Shown here piece by piece: positions 6,043-30,714 of a stretch of DNA of 64,000 bases. How positions within the stretch are numbered: the stretch's first letter is position 1; every line of letters starts with the position of its first letter. The notes under the pieces are model-generated. The model was not told the origin of the DNA. It was given only the letters and a program-made list of their open reading frames with translations, and did no database searches. Source of the DNA: Promethearchaeota archaeon (GTDB lineage Archaea > Asgardarchaeota > Lokiarchaeia > Sigyniarchaeales > SOKP01); assembly GCA_019057865.1 (NCBI GenBank), contig JAHLWP010000016.1, positions 1 to 64,000 of the forward strand, read 5' to 3'. Made by a program: the position numbers and the translations under genes.

Positions 6043-6291
6043 TTAGAGAATCTCCTCCAATAAGATTAATTTCTTTAATTCTTCTAAATCAATCTTTTTG
6101 ATGTTATAATATTCATTTAAATCATTGGGAAAAATTGGATTATTATATCTCTGAACAAAACTAATATCTTTTTTAATGTTATATTGAATAAATTTTTTAG
6201 GTGTCCAACCAAAAGCCTTAGCTATAATATCAATTGCTTTTTTGTCTTGGAGATCCATTTCAATTTCAATTTTTACTTTTTTTTCAGCCAT
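6043..6291 (-). CDS. Hypothetical RHH-like protein
   Basis: VKIEIEMDLQDKKAIDIIAKAFGWTPKKFI; abuts the downstream gene. Confidence 0.55.
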   Translation of the reverse strand: MAEKKVKIEIEMDLQDKKAIDIIAKAFGWTPKKFIQYNIKKDISFVQRYNNPIFPNDLNEYYNIKKIDLEELKKLILLEEIL

Positions 6292-19885: not shown

Positions 19886-20404
19886 TTAATTGTTTTTAAA
19901 GCCATATCTTTTTCTACCTCTGTTTTTAATTTTAAATTTATAGAAAATGAGTCTTTTATTCCTACATGAATAAAAAGGTTATTTTTAAAGTTTCTTAACC
20001 CGGATTCATTCTCATTTTTTTCCAATGGATTTAAAAAAGGTATCAAACACCTAATTTTTCCATTTCCAATTCACTTTTTTTTCCTCCATAACCCGCTAGA
20101 GGCAGATAGGTAAGGCACCTACCTAATAAAAATAAAAATAGTTTTAGACGATACCTTTTATTCTAATTCTCTTATACCCCTTATATTATTTATATTTGAT
20201 CCTAAAAATTCCTTTTTAATTTATTAACTAGGTAATTAAAACAAGAAAAGAATAGTTTCTATTGATATTTCATATATATTATATATCTTTCTTGGTATGA
20301 AACAATGGTTTCACGAAAATATTAAAATAATATAGGATGGTTACATCAGAATTGAAATTTTTATTAATTCCTAAGACATAAAAGCTTTATTATTCAAAAG
20401 AAAT

Positions 20405-20611
20405 TCAAGAAAGAACTTCCAATATCTTAGTAAGAATACGAGCTTTACCGCCTGTGGATTGCAGTAAAGTTTTTCCGCATACTAAACATTCAACATCAGT
20501 AGCAGAACATCCAAAAATAATTTGCTGATTTCCACAATTTAAGCACTTCACACGTAAAAATCTAGATTTTGGCTGTGGAATAATTGCCTTTTCTTCTCTT
20601 TTATGAACCAT
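20405..20611 (-). CDS. rps27e: 30S ribosomal protein S27e
   Basis: [13 protein letters not shown]...[16 protein letters not shown]. Confidence 0.97.
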
Positions 20612-20625
20612 TTAATTCACGCTTT

Positions 20626-20907
20626 TTATACTTCTTGTAGTTCGAGTCGTTTTACACGATAAGATTTTGCATAATGTTTTTTGCCACATTCAGAGCATTC
20701 CAAAAGGGGCGTTGTTCTTTTGTTAATCTTTACATTTTTATGAAAGATTTCTTTTGGGAAACTTCCGTATCCCGCTTTTTTGCGTTCTAATCTTCGCCTA
20801 CCCTGATTTAACATACGTTCCTTGCCTTTTTTATAGATTGTGACATTATGTTTTGTATGTATTCTACAGGTTGGGCAGTATCTATTCATTGACCGAGGGT
20901 ATTTCAA
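20626..20907 (-). CDS. rpl44e: 50S ribosomal protein L44e
   Basis: YCPTCRIHTKH...GYGSFPK...LECSECGK. Confidence 0.95.
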   Translation of the reverse strand: MKYPRSMNRYCPTCRIHTKHNVTIYKKGKERMLNQGRRRLERKKAGYGSFPKEIFHKNVKINKRTTPLLECSECGKKHYAKSYRVKRLELQEV

Positions 20908-21050
20908 TATTCACTGACCTTAATATCTAATTAACTTAGGTAGTTATTTATGAATTTTAAATTTTATTAGTTCTCTTTCTTTCTTATAAACTTCTACTAT
21001 TTAATAAAAAATGTTTTAAATCTTATTTACATAATTTTAATAAAACCATA

Positions 21051-21989
21051 TTGATAAGAATTTTGAAGTTTAAAGAGAAATTTAGTAAAGGAATAATAAG
21101 TGCTAAGCAATTTGATAGGGAAGATATTGATTATATCTTAAAAAAAGCTAAAGAAATGATTCAAATTAAAAATTCTAATATTCTTAAAGGAAAAATCTTA
21201 GCAACATTATTTTTTGAACCCTCAACCCGTACTCGTCTCAGTTTTGAATCTGCAATGTATAGATTAGGAGGTAATATAATAGGATTCCATTCTGGAGATG
21301 TTTCCTCTATCAAAAAAGGAGAAAGCATTGCCGATACAATAAGAACGGTTGAAAATTATAGTGACTGTATAGTGATGAGACACAGCCTCGAAGGAGCTGC
21401 TCGAATGGCAGCAAAATTCGCAAACGTCCCGATAATTAATGCAGGGTCAGGAAGTGGTGAACATCCTACTCAAGCATTATTAGATCTATTAACTATAATT
21501 AAAGAGGTTGGATCTTTAGATGGCTTAAATATTGGTATAATGGGTGATCTTAAGTATGGTCGTACAGTTCACTCACTTTCAATTTTACTCTCTAATTTTG
21601 AAGTAAATATCTATTTCATAAGCCCTAAGGAGCTTAGAATGAGAAATAGAGATAAAGATTTTTTAAGACAACGACAAGTAAAATATAAAGAAATTACTAA
21701 ATATCGTTTGATTCTAAGTGTGTTAGATGTTCTTTATATGACACGAATTCAAAAAGAAAGATTCATTGATTTGGAAGAATATGAAAAGGTTAAGGATATA
21801 TATGTTTTTAGAAAAGAGGATCTTGATGACACTAAAAATGGATTTAGATTATTACATCCTTTACCCCGTGTTTCCGAAATTTCACCAAAAGTAGACAGTT
21901 CTGAGAAAACAATTTACTTTAAACAAGCATTTTACGGAATCCCAATGAGAAAAGCACTTTTAGCAGAATTGATGTCAGATAAAAGCTGA
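21051..21989 (+). CDS. pyrB: Aspartate carbamoyltransferase catalytic subunit
   Basis: FFEPSTRTRLSF, HPTQALLD, HPLPR. Confidence 0.97.
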   Translation: MIRILKFKEKFSKGIISAKQFDREDIDYILKKAKEMIQIKNSNILKGKILATLFFEPSTRTRLSFESAMYRLGGNIIGFHSGDVSSIKKGESIADTIRTVENYSDCIVMRHSLEGAARMAAKFANVPIINAGSGSGEHPTQALLDLLTIIKEVGSLDGLNIGIMGDLKYGRTVHSLSILLSNFEVNIYFISPKELRMRNRDKDFLRQRQVKYKEITKYRLILSVLDVLYMTRIQKERFIDLEEYEKVKDIYVFRKEDLDDTKNGFRLLHPLPRVSEISPKVDSSEKTIYFKQAFYGIPMRKALLAELMSDKS

Positions 21990-22012
21990 GAAATCTCTCT
22001 ATTTATTATATT

Positions 22013-23989
22013 CTAAATTTTAATCCTTTTCTGTATAAAAATCGCTTCTAATTCAGATTTGAATAGATTAGATAAACGCTCTTTTATTGATGTCCCATTG
22101 ATATCAATATATTCATCAAATATAATTCCTCCGTTGATAACTTTTTCAAATTTTTTAAATAAATTAACTCTTTTAGCTAAAGATAACTTTGAATTGTGTC
22201 TAATAATGCATGATGAATATTTATATGGCATATCACTTCTTAGAGTTGTTCCATTATGCCACGCATTATTTAAATATGTATCATTATGAGGTTGGCTTAA
22301 AATATAATAATTGTTCTCTTCTTGATTTTTTTCTCTAATTAATTTTTTCATGAAAGTTAAGATCCTTAAAGCAAATTCTTCACTATTTCTTAATTTATCA
22401 AGCTCTATTCCACAATGATTCAAAATTGCTTCATTTAAACCAAAAAAACTTACAGATTTGATTGTATTCTGATAAAAATCATCTTCAATTTTTCCAAAAA
22501 AATCATAAATCAAACGTTTCCAACCATTTAAAGAATTTAATTTCTTTTCTATTAACGATTCTTTATGTTTAAATAAATCAAAAACACAACTCATTTTGTC
22601 AAATAGTAAATCTAGGAATAAATCATCATTTCGATTTGCCTTTACTGATATTGAGTGTAAATTAATTAAAATTTTATCTAAAATTATCTGATTTTTACTA
22701 GAATTTTTAATTTTAATTAAAGCAGAATTTAGAAAATTTGAGGAATTATAGTTGTAAAAGCAAATATTATTATTTTTTAAAATAGGTATTATATCTTCTA
22801 AAAAAATATTTTCTAAATTTGAAGTATTTAATTTTGAATAATCAAATATTATAAAAGGTTTAACATTATTATCAATTTCTTTTCCTCTTATTTTATAATT
22901 CAAAAATTCTTTATCAACTTTGAATTGATTTAAAAATAAATCAGTTGAATCCTTAAAATCATGATAGTTAAACTCAAAAGTTAAACTATGTCTCAGATCT
23001 TCAAAAGAATTGTTAAAATTGAGAATTTGGGATTTCAAAATATCAATAAAGTATAACATTTTCTCATGGGAATTCATATAAGAAAGAAAATTTTTGTTGA
23101 ATTCACCTAATACTAAATCTTGAGAGAAATAAGGCTTAAAATTATGTAAAAGATCAGTAAAACGTAGAATTAAGTTAATTAAATCTCTAGAATTGGTTAA
23201 TTTACTCGAGGAATTCAAATTTCTTTTAATAAGCACCTCTAGTACTGAGTTTGTATTTAAATATAAGCTTAAAGGTCTCAAACTCCAATAATTTAAGTGC
23301 AGTAGAGCTATTTCTCCTGTTAAATATAAATCAGCTAGATTTTTTGGTAATAAGTTCAAGAGTAAAAATTGCTCAGAAACGTCAGATCCTAATTCCTTTA
23401 TGAACTTGTCAGGATTAATATTGCTGCCTTCTGAGTTAAATAATTTAAATACTTCAAATGGAGGTGTTCCTAAACGAGTTAATTTATGTCTTACTTCTTC
23501 AAATCCATTTTCTAATAATATTGCATTAATATATTCACGCATTAAAGGAGCAGTTAGATATTCAATATTAGTCTTCGAAAGGCGCTCTTCAACTTCGTGA
23601 GCAATTTGTTTAGCTATAAAAGATTCCATTCCGCCTTCGTTTATGAGATATTCCTCAATTTTATTTATATCAAATATTTCTTTCGAATATTTAGATGTTC
23701 TAATCATTTTTACCCTATTTTTTTCCACTAAGATCTGTTCAATAGATAATACACTATCTAATATCTGCTTACCTAAAACTGTAATATAATATCCGTCTTC
23801 AGAAGATTCTATTAATTTACAGTCTTTTAAGGCATTTAAATGAAATGAGAAATTTACAGATGTATTATTACAATTAATAACTTCTTTTTGAAGTCGTGAA
23901 AATGAAATAGGTTCTTTAATTTTTTTTAGTTTCTTTAAAATATCTATTCTAATTTTTTGCCCTAAGGTTTTTAATTGTTTTTCTAACAT
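22013..23989 (-). CDS. wHTH + ATP-cone + degenerate class III ribonucleotide reductase (NrdD)-like domain
   Basis: N-terminal FSFHLNAL...YYITVLG wHTH; ATP cone FDINKI...LTAPLMREYINAILLENG; FFGLNEA; no C-terminal glycyl-radical motif. Confidence 0.75.
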   Translation of the reverse strand: MLEKQLKTLGQKIRIDILKKLKKIKEPISFSRLQKEVINCNNTSVNFSFHLNALKDCKLIESSEDGYYITVLGKQILDSVLSIEQILVEKNRVKMIRTSKYSKEIFDINKIEEYLINEGGMESFIAKQIAHEVEERLSKTNIEYLTAPLMREYINAILLENGFEEVRHKLTRLGTPPFEVFKLFNSEGSNINPDKFIKELGSDVSEQFLLLNLLPKNLADLYLTGEIALLHLNYWSLRPLSLYLNTNSVLEVLIKRNLNSSSKLTNSRDLINLILRFTDLLHNFKPYFSQDLVLGEFNKNFLSYMNSHEKMLYFIDILKSQILNFNNSFEDLRHSLTFEFNYHDFKDSTDLFLNQFKVDKEFLNYKIRGKEIDNNVKPFIIFDYSKLNTSNLENIFLEDIIPILKNNNICFYNYNSSNFLNSALIKIKNSSKNQIILDKILINLHSISVKANRNDDLFLDLLFDKMSCVFDLFKHKESLIEKKLNSLNGWKRLIYDFFGKIEDDFYQNTIKSVSFFGLNEAILNHCGIELDKLRNSEEFALRILTFMKKLIREKNQEENNYYILSQPHNDTYLNNAWHNGTTLRSDMPYKYSSCIIRHNSKLSLAKRVNLFKKFEKVINGGIIFDEYIDINGTSIKERLSNLFKSELEAIFIQKRIKI

Positions 23990-24226
23990 ATTTTATTTTT
24001 TGTCGGAATCAATTTTAAATATAGATATAGTTTTATACCTTTAACGCTGCTTATCTAAATAATATGTTTATCAATTATATAAAAATTCGGGAATTTTCCA
24101 TTGCTTTAATAAAAAAAGATAATATGTAGGTGATATTGAAACTTATAGTAAGAGATTTGGTGATCTTTAATTTTAAAATTTTTTTTATATTTAGAATTAG
24201 TTATTTGTTAAAAATTTTAAAAAAAG

Positions 24227-24844
24227 TTATCGTGCCGAAACAGCAATTCTCTCAATTTCATCCTTTCGTTTTACTGCTCTAGATTCTTGACTATTTTGTG
24301 CTGCTAAAATTAATTCTTGAGCTATATTTTCTTCAAACATTCTTTCATTCCCATGGGATCTAGCACCAATTGCTTGAACGAGATATTTTATAGCTAAGTC
24401 AACTCGGCGCTGGGGCGCGATATCTACTGCTGAAGCATATGATATCCCTCCTCGAGCGATTTTGGTTGTTTCCTCTCTTGGAGCAGTATTAACAACTGCG
24501 TCAACTAAAACTTGAACCGGATTTTGACCTGTTTTTAACTCTATTAATGTAAATGCATCTTTCAGGCCTTTTATTAGTTTATTCTTTTTTCCAGAAGTAT
24601 GTGAACTCTTATGTCCTTTTATTCTGCTTCCGATAAAACCAGGAGAGAGCAATCTATTGGTGAATCGTTCAATTATTGAGACTCGTGAGCTTTTCCAGAA
24701 ACGCCTATGCTCATGACGACCTGCTGAATGTGGTATTATGATGGTTTTTAGATTAATATATTTCTCAAGCGTAAAATCGTTTAACTCGATGTTTTCAAAT
24801 GACCATTTATTAAATAACTTGATCTCAGATTTGCTTTTACTCAT
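24227..24844 (-). CDS. rps7: 30S ribosomal protein S7
   Basis: NPVQVLVDAVVNTAPREE, AVDIAPQRRVD, KDEIERIAVSAR. Confidence 0.97.
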   Translation of the reverse strand: MSKSKSEIKLFNKWSFENIELNDFTLEKYINLKTIIIPHSAGRHEHRRFWKSSRVSIIERFTNRLLSPGFIGSRIKGHKSSHTSGKKNKLIKGLKDAFTLIELKTGQNPVQVLVDAVVNTAPREETTKIARGGISYASAVDIAPQRRVDLAIKYLVQAIGARSHGNERMFEENIAQELILAAQNSQESRAVKRKDEIERIAVSAR

Positions 24845-24856
24845 TATCTATTACCT

Positions 24857-25333
24857 CTATCTAAGTGGCTTTTCTTTCTTACCAGTTAAAAGTGCTTGTA
24901 GGCTCACACCATTTACTTTTACAACTCTCCACCTTACTCCAGGGAGATCACCGATAGCTCTCCCTTTAGCTCCACCAATACCTTCTAATAGAACACGATC
25001 ATGCTCATCAATAAAATTAAGCGCTCCATCTCTAGACATTATTAGAACTTAATAATGTACTCCAGGTAGAAACGCTGTAATAGTCTTTCCATTTTTCTTT
25101 AATTGTACGCGTACACACTTCCGAATAGCTGAATTGGGTTGTTTACTCTCCCGACCAACTTTCTGTAGCACGATACCTAGGGCTTGTGGAGCTCCTTCTA
25201 AGGGATCAACCTTCTGTTTTAATTTGAGCTTTTTCCTTTTATATTTTGATTTAGACCAGCGAAATCTTCTTCGATTTTTTCTTAATTGTCGTGCGGCGTA
25301 TAATCCTTTTGGTTTTCCTATTTTGAACACCAA
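24857..25333 (-). CDS. rps12: 30S ribosomal protein S12 (uS12), interrupted by a 30-nt insert; exons 25333-25060 and 25029-24857
   Basis: [15 protein letters not shown]...TAFLPG and [11 protein letters not shown]...GDLPGVRW halves join in frame when 30 nt are removed. Confidence 0.95.
25030..25059 (-). other. Candidate bulge-helix-bulge mRNA intron in rps12
   Basis: CUGG-AG|U-ACAUUAUUA-AGUUC-UAAUAAUGU-CUAG-AG|A; contains an in-frame UAA. Confidence 0.8.
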
Positions 25334-25437
25334 ATAACAATATTTTAATTATATTATAATGTGAGAAAATATCTCATAGAACTTAAAATTTATGAATATT
25401 ATAAATATCTTAAATAGAAAAGAATGAGTTCTTCTGA

Positions 25438-25917
25438 TTAAAAATTATTTTTTGTATTAATTATTACATTATCTACTTCAAAGTACCTTAAAACTAGTTC
25501 TTTTATTTTTCTAATCATACTACCTTCTTTACCTATTGCTTTTCCACGATCTTGGGGGCGAACAGAGATAATAATAGTTTTCTTTAGATTCTTACTCTCT
25601 TTAATTTCGATATTTTGGACTTTTATGGCATTCTTGGTAGTATTTAAGATATTTTGTATAAACTGGTTAAGATCTTCAGAAAATTCGATGACATCTATAT
25701 TCTTTTGAAGTCTTGCCTTTAAATCTTTTACATGTTCTCCAGCTTTTCCAATTGCTTTACCTACATCTTCTTTTTTTACTAAAAAGATAACTACTTCAGA
25801 ATTATTTTCAGGAGATCTGAAAATTAGACAGTCTTTTATTATAGCGCCAGATATATTATTGAATAAGGAAATAAGTTCCATCGATTTTTGATCAATTCTA
25901 ATATGTTTTCTTAACAT
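25438..25917 (-). CDS. nusA: Archaeal NusA (two KH domains)
   Basis: GKAIGKAG and GKAIGKEG KH motifs; conserved position between rpl30e and rps12. Confidence 0.93.
   Translation of the reverse strand: MLRKHIRIDQKSMELISLFNNISGAIIKDCLIFRSPENNSEVVIFLVKKEDVGKAIGKAGEHVKDLKARLQKNIDVIEFSEDLNQFIQNILNTTKNAIKVQNIEIKESKNLKKTIIISVRPQDRGKAIGKEGSMIRKIKELVLRYFEVDNVIINTKNNF

Positions 25918-27715: not shown

Positions 27716-30714
<2,999 letters not shown>

What the first reader, a model, noticed from the sequence alone, without database searches (positions are those of the whole stretch)
25022..25072. Bulge-helix-bulge intron inside the ribosomal protein S12 mRNA
Seen: the minus strand reads UUUCUAC CUGG AGU ACAUUAUUA AGUUC UAAUAAUGU CUAG AGA UGGAG. 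This gives a perfect 9-bp intron stem, a 3-nt bulge (AGU), a 4-bp central helix CUGG/CUAG (one G-U) and a second 3-nt bulge (AGA). The outer exon helix UUCUA/UGGAG needs one unpaired C, so the motif is relaxed on that side. The insert carries an in-frame UAA. Known: archaeal splicing endonuclease EndA cuts after the second base of each bulge, and the mRNA precedent I know is crenarchaeal cbf5. Applying that rule removes exactly 25030-25059 and gives CCU GGA GAU GGA (P-G-D-G), the conserved uS12 sequence. Inference: an essential ribosomal protein mRNA in an Asgard archaeon is spliced by the tRNA-splicing machinery.
Basis: partly seen in the sequence, partly recalled or inferred. Interest (0 to 1): 0.95.

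Follow-up and report, generated by a model that had tools for sequence, protein, structure and literature searches.

The report
Splicing-endonuclease intron in Asgard rps12
The only ribosomal protein S12 gene of this Asgard (Promethearchaeota) archaeon is cut by a 30-base insert shaped like a tRNA-type (bulge-helix-bulge) intron. Related archaea carry diverged versions at the same codon that keep the fold by compensatory changes, so an essential mRNA is very probably spliced by the tRNA-splicing enzymes.

Summary
Window 25030-25059 (minus strand) is a 30-nt insert with an in-frame TAA in the genome's only uS12 gene. Removing it gives ...AFLPGDGALNF..., 98% identical to an uninterrupted congener.

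- **Real DNA:** two independent metagenome contigs (99% identical over 5.1 kb) carry the same insert.
- **Same site elsewhere:** 12 distinct versions of 29-32 nt, ten of them not a multiple of 3, sit at the same codon in related Promethearchaeota.
- **Cut rule holds:** one fixed geometry with the canonical EndA cut (after the 2nd base of each bulge) restores PGDG in all 12. Where no repeat blurs the junction, only that cut gives the conserved Asp.
- **Covariation:** 86.6% of cells are paired against 32-51% for slid controls. Eight of 9 hairpin pairs change on both sides. One central-helix pair is U-A eight times and C-G four times, with no mismatch.
- **Second site:** congener G102 has a 30-nt intron at DLPGV|RYK, where only the canonical cut gives the conserved Arg.
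- **Machinery:** the genome encodes a catalytic EndA, a His-less paralogue and RtcB.
- **Not shown:** the laid RNA contigs never reached the junction, so splicing itself is unproven.

The scan had flagged similar micro-introns elsewhere in this genome. I checked acs and, partly, leuS. The kind is known (crenarchaeal cbf5); the host gene and lineage are new.

The parts
25060..25333 (-). rps12 (uS12) exon 1; ends ...GCG UUU CUA CCU GGA G (first base of the Asp codon, so a phase-1 intron)
   Evidence: ORF list. PF00164 match 24866-25219, model positions 2-108, with 1 TAA inside. Alignment to relatives. The TTG start at 25333 is the ORF finder's choice and was not verified.
25030..25059 (-). 30-nt intervening sequence (U + 9-bp hairpin with loop AGUUC + CUAG + AG), in-frame TAA at 25049-25051
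   Evidence: Identical in metagenome contigs L033 and L034. Near-identical in congener G090. The sequence occurs once in the genome.
24857..25029 (-). rps12 exon 2 (AU GGA GCG ... to the stop codon)
   Evidence: Covered by metatranscriptome contigs.
25062..25065 (-). Central helix H, 5' strand (CUGG: Pro wobble base plus GG of Gly), an exon sequence
   Evidence: Pairs with 25032-25035. Alignment column pair 16-49 is U-A in 8 versions and C-G in 4, with no mismatch.
25059..25061 (-). 5' bulge AG|U; predicted 5' cut between 25060 and 25059
   Evidence: Geometry. The cut rule restores PGDG in all 12 versions.
25036..25058 (-). Inner helix h': 9-bp stem (25050-25058 with 25036-25044) and 5-nt loop
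   Evidence: Eight of 9 pairs show changes on both sides among the 12 versions.
25032..25035 (-). Central helix H, 3' strand (CUAG), an intron sequence
25029..25031 (-). 3' bulge AG|A; predicted 3' cut between 25030 and 25029
25069..25076 (-). Outer exon-exon helix, 5' arm AGCGUUUC
   Evidence: ViennaRNA centroid and RNAalifold. 87.5% of cells are paired. Intron-bearing alleles have 7.0 of 8 pairs against 5.5 in intron-less kin.
25020..25027 (-). Outer exon-exon helix, 3' arm GGAGCGCU

Best explanation
The 30 nt at 25030-25059 are a bulge-helix-bulge (BHB) intron in the rps12 pre-mRNA.

Proposed mechanism:
1. The transcript folds so that exon bases CUGG pair with intron bases CUAG. This 4-bp helix is flanked by a 3-nt bulge on each strand, an intron hairpin on the inside and an exon-exon helix on the outside.
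2. The two-subunit splicing endonuclease (catalytic EndA at G000 C71:81890-82114, His-less paralogue at C69:38574-38822) cuts after the second base of each bulge.
3. RtcB (C75:110910-112217) joins ...CCUGGAG to AUGGAGCG..., recreating the Asp codon and the conserved PGDG loop. The intron is released, probably as a circle.

Shown here: the insert is real DNA in a single-copy essential gene. The fold is conserved by covariation at the same codon in 12 diverged versions. The canonical cut rule gives the conserved protein every time. The enzymes are encoded.

Inferred, not shown: that cleavage and ligation happen in the cell, and that EndA and RtcB are the agents.
For: 1. There is one S12 gene in a 99.67%-complete genome, and the insert carries an in-frame TAA.
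2. The same insert is in two independent JGI contigs that are 99% identical over 5.1 kb, and 17 DNA runs from 12 studies hold the stretch.
3. Twelve distinct versions of 29-32 nt lie at the same codon, with one further locus (L140) carrying the L046-type insert, and the excised product is AFLPGDGALNF in all 12. With bulge 2 = AAA, a cut one base to either side gives Asn or Val instead of the invariant Asp.
4. Covariation: 86.6% of cells are paired against 32-51% when partners are slid. 0 of 500 shuffles reach the observed score. 41 cells have changes on both sides. The central-helix pair is U-A x8 and C-G x4. RNAalifold recovers the same three helices unaided.
5. Exon wobble bases fit the outer helix only where the intron is present. 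Intron-bearing alleles have 7.0 of 8 pairs against 5.5 in intron-less ones, and the first Ala codon is GCG in 9/12 against 1/32 (Mann-Whitney p = 2e-4, not corrected for phylogeny).
6. Congener G102 has a second rps12 intron with central helix GCGU/GCGU. The canonical cut gives GUA AGA UAU (V-R-Y), whereas excision at the direct repeat gives Gly.
7. The genome has two EndA paralogues. One best matches the catalytic chains of crenarchaeal heterotetramers (3p1z_B, 3ajv_B, 2zyz_B). The other has DSA where the first has the catalytic HSP. RtcB is present.
8. The same kind of insert interrupts acs in this genome (C82:548-579): the central helix has 4 of 4 pairs, the inner stem 10 bp, and the two Pfam match pieces abut at model positions 213/212.
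9. The intron-less allele of close relative G012 has exactly the predicted junction. G000, G090 and G012 form one clade with 99% SH-aLRT support.
Against: - No spliced RNA was seen. The three metatranscriptome contigs that could be laid cover rps7 and exon 2 only.
- The 3' splice site is not a clean bulge. The base opposite it (C25066) is unpaired, or the site is a 3x4 internal loop.
- Five of the 12 versions have a G.A mismatch in the central helix.
- My genome-wide scan for frame-restoring strict BHB motifs showed no excess over shifted-cut controls, so it gives no statistical support for a genome-wide class.
- EndA specificity in this organism is untested.
Confidence: 0.8

Rival explanations
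1. Split protein: the insert is not removed. S12 is made as two peptides (N-terminal 94 aa ending PGVHY, C-terminal 60 aa from the ATG at 25039) that assemble in the ribosome.
For: An in-frame ATG lies 9 nt after the TAA in this genome, so restart is conceivable. The break is in a loop (PGDG) of the protein.
Against: - Among the 12 versions the possible start is ATG, TTG or GTG at four different positions (-33, -3, +19/+20, +22).
- Two versions have no start in the sequence examined, and none has a Shine-Dalgarno-like motif. The neighbouring rps7 has GAGGU 9 nt before its ATG.
- In ten versions the N-terminal piece would run on in a wrong frame.
- This model does not explain the covariation of exon bases with intron bases, or why the canonical cut always gives Asp.
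Confidence: 0.07
2. Translational bypassing: ribosomes take off at the Gly codon before the insert and land on the Gly codon after it, as in phage T4 gene 60.
For: In this genome GGA precedes the insert and GGA follows GAU. A hairpin and a nearby stop codon are present. Bypassing would tolerate inserts of any length.
Against: - The product would lack Asp-Gly of the invariant PGDG loop.
- The take-off and landing Gly codons fall in different wobble classes (GGA/GGG against GGU/GGC) in four of the 12 versions (L037, L044, L046, L048) and differ at the third base in a fifth (L049).
- The stop is three codons after the take-off codon, not adjacent to it.
- The central-helix covariation and the fixed 3-nt bulges are not needed for bypassing.
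Confidence: 0.03
3. The insert is removed from the RNA, but by something other than EndA and RtcB, for example another structure-specific nuclease and ligase.
For: No enzyme assay was done. The 3' site departs from the strict motif.
Against: The 3-4-3 geometry and the cut after the second bulge base are the defining marks of EndA substrates. Relaxed motifs are cut by hetero-oligomeric EndA, and the same explanation was proposed for cbf5 (PMC2738675). Both EndA subunits and RtcB are encoded.
Confidence: 0.06
4. Non-functional: a decaying gene copy, a recent deleterious insertion or an assembly error.
For: Only 3 of 154 genomes searched in the order show an in-frame-stop insert in rps12.
Against: - It is the only copy in a 99.67%-complete genome.
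- The identical insert is in independent assemblies that differ by about 1% elsewhere.
- The protein is 98% identical to a relative's while the surrounding DNA differs almost only at synonymous sites (5 of 36 bases before the insert).
- Diverged inserts at the same site keep their structure.
Confidence: 0.02

Closest known systems
BHB intron in the cbf5 (pseudouridine synthase) pre-mRNA of Crenarchaeota (Watanabe 2002; Yokobori 2009, PMC2738675)
   Same: A short intron in a protein-coding gene with a bulge-helix-bulge motif that is often relaxed. Its distribution among relatives is patchy, with gain and loss. The host has a hetero-oligomeric EndA. Gene callers report two ORFs or a frameshift.
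   Different: Different gene (an essential ribosomal protein) and different phylum (Asgard/Promethearchaeota). At least two intron positions occur in the same gene within one genus. Other protein genes of the same genome carry similar inserts. Splicing of cbf5 was shown by experiment; here it was not. As of 2009, PMC2738675 stated that splicing had been confirmed for no archaeal protein gene other than cbf5.
Non-canonical BHB introns of archaeal tRNA genes, abundant in Thermoproteales and in some Asgard classes (PMC11291895; bioRxiv 10.64898/2026.10.13.758758)
   Same: The same motif, the same size range, the same enzymes, and exon bases forming half of the motif. Repeated gains are reported, and most of the Asgard genomes surveyed have a two-subunit EndA.
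   Different: The host is an mRNA, so excision must keep the reading frame, and translation of unspliced RNA would give a truncated protein. Those papers report no introns in protein-coding genes.
Ire1-dependent splicing of HAC1/XBP1 mRNA in eukaryotes (my own knowledge, not checked here)
   Same: Spliceosome-independent cutting of an mRNA at stem-loops, followed by a tRNA-type ligase (RtcB in animals).
   Different: A different nuclease and motif, and a regulated stress response. Nothing here shows regulation.

Membership tests
Archaeal BHB intron (EndA substrate) | 4-bp central helix between the two cut sites | tested here: met
   CUGG/CUAG with one G-U. 89.6% of cells are paired over 12 versions, and one pair covaries U-A/C-G. 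Five versions have G.A at the fourth pair.
Archaeal BHB intron (EndA substrate) | Two 3-nt bulges on opposite strands | tested here: inconclusive
   The 5' bulge AGU is clean, lying between the central and inner helices. The 3' bulge AGA needs C25066 unpaired opposite it, or becomes a 3x4 internal loop. This is a relaxed motif of the HBh' type.
Archaeal BHB intron (EndA substrate) | Cuts after the 2nd base of each bulge give a functional joined RNA | tested here: met
   PGDG is restored in 12 of 12 versions. Neighbouring cuts give Asn or Val where no repeat is present. At the second site in G102, only this cut gives the conserved Arg.
Archaeal BHB intron (EndA substrate) | Flanking helices (inner intron hairpin, outer exon helix) | tested here: met
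   Inner: 9 bp here, and 8 of 9 pairs covary. Outer: 85-87.5% of cells are paired, and pair 13-54 is AU x8, GC x2, GU x2.
Archaeal BHB intron (EndA substrate) | Host encodes the splicing endonuclease and an RtcB-type ligase | tested here: met
   PF01974 matches twice. One matches crenarchaeal catalytic chains; the other lacks the catalytic His on my reading of the sequence. PF01139 matches once.
Archaeal BHB intron (EndA substrate) | Spliced RNA and excised (circular) intron observed | tested here: inconclusive
   The laid RNA contigs did not bridge the site and no joint was seen.
Archaeal BHB intron (EndA substrate) | Cleavage by EndA in vitro | not testable with these tools
   Needs recombinant enzyme and a transcript.

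The most novel reading that the evidence does not exclude
The rps12 intron may be one member of a population of 29-35-nt EndA-dependent micro-introns that are repeatedly gained and precisely lost in many protein-coding genes of this Promethearchaeota genus, including essential translation and transcription genes. If so, routine mRNA splicing, and the need to keep ribosomes off unspliced mRNA, already exists in close prokaryotic relatives of eukaryotes.
Probability: 0.55. Interest if true: 0.95.

Novelty: new member of a known kind. Interest (0 to 1): 0.85.

Why it matters
In the literature I could search, cbf5 of Crenarchaeota is the only archaeal protein gene with confirmed EndA splicing.

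Here an essential, single-copy ribosomal protein gene of an Asgard archaeon depends on removing a tRNA-type intron. The same gene has acquired such introns at two or more sites within one genus, and other genes of the same genome carry similar inserts.

This makes several open questions directly testable in the lineage closest to eukaryotes:
- how a cell with coupled transcription and translation avoids translating unspliced mRNA;
- how such introns arrive and are lost so precisely;
- whether splicing limits ribosome production.

There is also a practical point. Gene callers split these genes into two 'partial' proteins, so marker-gene sets and annotations of Asgard genomes are affected.

Tried and rejected
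- **Genome-wide scan.** I looked for strict BHB motifs (central helix 4 of 4 pairs, inner stem at least 5 bp, 3-nt bulges) whose excision restores an open frame. Counts equalled those of shifted-cut controls in every length class and stringency. Gene boundaries swamp the signal, so the scan neither supports nor refutes a genome-wide class. It missed rps12 only because exon 2 is shorter than the required flank.\n- **RNA.** One search and one laying were allowed. RNA contigs of runs X18, X19 and X20 cover rps7 and exon 2 only, with no joint. DNA run X3 laid nothing. The X19 contig ends at 25032, the last base shared by the spliced and unspliced forms. That would fit a graph branch, but it is one contig and I do not count it as evidence.\n- **Copies of the intron elsewhere.** None in the genome at up to 3 mismatches and none in genome contigs by exact match.\n- **G005 'split' S12.** The two contig ends overlap, so this is an assembly break. 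G106 is a contig edge.\n- **104-aa S12 fragments (P0004/P0005 type).** The one locus fetched (P0005, L138) is a scaffold gap of Ns, not an intron.\n- **rpoA' 65-nt insert in this window.** It has no clean BHB in the minimum-energy fold (z = -0.74), and I did not pursue it.\n- **Rfam.** No match at 24700-25500.\n- **Phylogenetically independent test** of exon wobble adaptation. Only 3 independent pairs lie on well-supported branches. The direction is consistent but the result is not significant.\n- **Eighty further genome loci.** Of the 80, 42 could be scored with my patterns and none of those has an insert at this site; the other 38, mostly Bathyarchaeia and other non-Asgard archaea, did not match my patterns after PG.

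Full report
**What is there.** On the minus strand, the ORF finder gives two pieces of ribosomal protein uS12. One is a 94-aa piece (25049-25333) ending ...AFLPGVHY-stop. The other is a 60-aa piece (24857-25039) starting MSRDGALNF. A Pfam S12 model matches across both pieces (model positions 2-108) with one TAA inside, and this is the only S12 match in a genome rated 99.67% complete. Taking out 25030-25059 joins CCU GGA G to AU GGA GCG. The result is a 148-aa protein that is 98% identical to the uninterrupted S12 of congener G012, although the DNA around the site differs at 5 of 36 bases before the insert, and almost all differences across the flanks are synonymous. The gene is therefore under purifying selection and is not decaying.

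**The structure.**
- The central helix CUGG (25062-25065) pairs with CUAG (25032-25035).
- The bulges are AG|U and AG|A.
- The intron stem is a perfect 9 bp with loop AGUUC.
- ViennaRNA finds the hairpin, the central helix and an 8-bp exon-exon helix, AGCGUUUC with GGAGCGCU.
- The fold energy is -19.7 kcal/mol against -11.8 +/- 2.6 for shuffles (z = -3.06).
- The 3' site is relaxed. Either C25066 bulges out opposite it, or the site is a 3x4 internal loop.
- In this genome GAG ends both exon 1 and the intron, so four adjacent cut positions give the same product. Taken alone, the precision argument is weaker than it looks.

**Is the DNA real?** Two JGI metagenome contigs from different samples (Ga0209978_10004794 and Ga0114925_10002007) are 99% identical to the window over 5.1 kb and carry the identical insert. 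Seventeen DNA runs from 12 studies hold at least half of the sampled words of the stretch. The insert sequence occurs nowhere else in the genome.

**Relatives.** Of 154 genomes in the order, only three show an in-frame-stop insert in rps12, all in the window's genus. By matching coordinates, the order includes Promethearchaeum syntrophicum MK-D1 and Ca. Lokiarchaeum ossiferum.
- G000 and G090 have nearly the same 30-nt insert at the same codon; G090 differs by one loop base.
- G102 has a different 30-nt insert inside DLPGV|RYK.

A protein search with the 60-aa C-terminal piece, restricted by length to fragments, found many S12 C-terminal 'proteins' from other Promethearchaeota assemblies that break just before GALNF. 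I fetched their DNA. It shows 12 distinct inserts of 29, 30, 31 or 32 nt at exactly this codon, with largely unrelated hairpin sequences, and one further locus (L140) carrying the L046-type insert.

**The cut rule as a test.** I imposed one fixed geometry on all 12 versions:
- the central helix's 5' strand is the Pro wobble base plus GG;
- bulge 1 is the Gly wobble base, then G, then the first intron base;
- the central helix's 3' strand and bulge 2 sit immediately before the U of the Asp codon.

I then cut after the second base of each bulge. Every version gives ...AFLPGDGALNF.... In the nine versions whose second bulge is AAA there is no repeat to blur the junction. A cut one base earlier would give Asn and one base later Val, whereas Asp is invariant in all intron-less relatives.

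The G102 intron is an independent check. Its central helix is GCGU/GCGU and its bulges are AA|U and AG|G. The canonical cut gives GUA AGA UAU, which is V-R-Y, while excision at its direct repeat gives Gly in place of the conserved Arg.

**Covariation.** I aligned the 12 versions (A1).
- The drawn structure has 86.6% of cells paired, against 32-51% when the 3' partners are slid by 1-3 columns.
- 41 cells have changes on both sides, against 16 +/- 3 in shuffles.
- 0 of 500 shuffles reach the observed covariation score.
- Eight of 9 hairpin pairs change on both sides.
- The central-helix pair formed by the Pro wobble base and an intron base is U-A in eight versions and C-G in four, never mismatched.
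- An outer pair is A-U x8, G-C x2 and G-U x2.
- RNAalifold, given only the alignment, predicts the same three helices.
- Five versions have a G.A mismatch at the fourth central pair.

**Exon adaptation.** Within the genus-level clade, intron-bearing alleles have on average 7.0 of the 8 outer-helix pairs (4.9 Watson-Crick). Intron-less alleles have 5.5 (3.1 Watson-Crick). The first flanking Ala codon is GCG in 9 of 12 intron-bearing alleles against 1 of 32 intron-less ones. The rank test gives p = 2e-4 but ignores relatedness. The phylogenetically independent test has only three usable pairs and is not significant, so this is suggestive only.

**History.** A tree of the spliced coding sequence is short (219 columns) and poorly resolved. 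It places all intron-bearing alleles inside the genus-level clade, interspersed with intron-less ones, and well-supported branches force at least three changes of state. G000, G090 and the intron-less G012 form one clade with 99% support. Either G012 lost the intron precisely, leaving exactly the predicted junction, or the intron moved laterally.

**Machinery.** The genome has two EndA homologues.
- The first best matches the catalytic chains of crenarchaeal heterotetrameric enzymes (3p1z_B, 3ajv_B, 2zyz_B). It keeps Tyr, His and Lys in the expected motifs (my reading).
- The second has DSA where the first has HSP, as expected of a structural subunit.
- RtcB is present.
- A two-subunit EndA is the type that cuts relaxed motifs (PMC5829648 abstract) and was proposed to explain the cbf5 intron (PMC2738675). 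It is reported for most of the Asgard genomes surveyed in one preprint (bioRxiv 10.64898/2026.10.13.758758).
- ARAGORN finds only 30 tRNA genes, 18 of them with anticodon-loop introns. This hints that many more are interrupted elsewhere.

**Rivals.**
- *Two-piece S12.* This would need a start codon for the C-terminal half. The candidates differ in kind and position among versions, two versions have none, and none has a Shine-Dalgarno-like motif.
- *Ribosomal bypassing.* This would delete Asp-Gly from an invariant loop. The take-off and landing Gly codons fall in different wobble classes in four versions and differ at the third base in a fifth.
- Neither rival explains the pairing of exon bases with intron bases.
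- *Artefact or decay.* Excluded.

**RNA.** Only one laying was possible. Three metatranscriptome contigs cover rps7 and exon 2, so the operon is represented in RNA libraries. None reaches exon 1 and no joint was seen. Splicing itself is therefore inferred, not observed.

**Context in the genome.** Earlier notes of this scan, which are AI leads, say that cooS, leuS, acs, thiolase, rnhB, elf1 and others in this genome carry about 30-nt BHB inserts.
- My own strict scan could not show a statistical excess.
- It did independently pick the acs case. C82:548-579 is 32 nt, with the central helix CGGC/GCUG, a 10-bp inner stem and a 5-bp outer stem. The two Pfam AMP-binding match pieces abut at model positions 213/212 across it.
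- leuS on C49 is broken into four frame-shifted Pfam pieces, and one insert (cut near 6048, 30 nt) has a 10-bp stem.
- The 65-nt insert in rpoA' of this window (30413-30477) has no clean BHB in the predicted fold.

**Verdict.** The mechanism is of a known kind, the EndA-spliced mRNA intron seen in crenarchaeal cbf5. The host gene, the lineage, the two independent sites in one gene and the company of similar inserts in other genes are new in the literature I could search. Confirmation needs junction reads or an enzyme assay.

Noticed in passing
G102 (L052:~800-830; G102:C14:14740-15093): A second, unrelated 30-nt BHB intron in rps12 of a congener, inside DLPGV|RYK. The central helix is GCGU/GCGU and the bulges are AA|U and AG|G. 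Only the canonical cut gives the conserved Arg codon AGA.
   Followed up: partly
window 30413-30477 (-): A 65-nt insert with stops and a frame change splits RNA polymerase subunit A' between CMGHFGH and [12 protein letters not shown]. The exons can pair (CGGGCA/UGCCCG), but the predicted fold shows no clean 3-4-3 motif (z = -0.74).
   Followed up: partly
G000 C82:548-579 (-) and the rest of C82:9-1228: Acetyl-CoA synthetase is interrupted by a 32-nt insert with textbook BHB geometry. The downstream part holds a TGA and a TAG, so more inserts are likely. The contig ends inside the gene.
   Followed up: partly
G000 C49:5035-7095 (+): The leucyl-tRNA synthetase Pfam match is broken into four pieces in different frames. 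One 30-nt insert (cut near 6048) has a 10-bp stem and 3 of 4 central-helix pairs.
   Followed up: partly
L033, L034 against window 20298-25408: Both metagenome contigs align to the window only between 20298 and 25408. Sequence beyond both ends does not align by BLAST, so strains of this species differ in what flanks the rps12-rps7 block.
   Followed up: no
L046, L047, L049, L140: In some intron-bearing lineages rps12 is no longer followed by rps7 on the same strand. rps7 lies upstream on the opposite strand, and a peptidase M28 or PCNA gene lies downstream, so the conserved operon is rearranged.
   Followed up: no
whole genome G000: ARAGORN finds only 30 tRNA genes in a 99.67%-complete genome, 18 with anticodon-loop introns of 11-61 nt, plus two calls of 876 and 1582 nt. 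Many tRNA genes are probably hidden by non-canonical introns.
   Followed up: no
window 24942-24944: RNA contigs from two different studies (runs X18 and X20) both end at 24942-24944 inside exon 2. The cause is unknown and may be strain variation.
   Followed up: no
protein databases (P0001-P0045): Public gene calls list many 45-104-aa 'partial S12' proteins from Promethearchaeota. Of the twelve clusters I looked up, eleven are intron-split genes and one sits at a scaffold gap. Marker-gene pipelines will mis-score them.
   Followed up: partly
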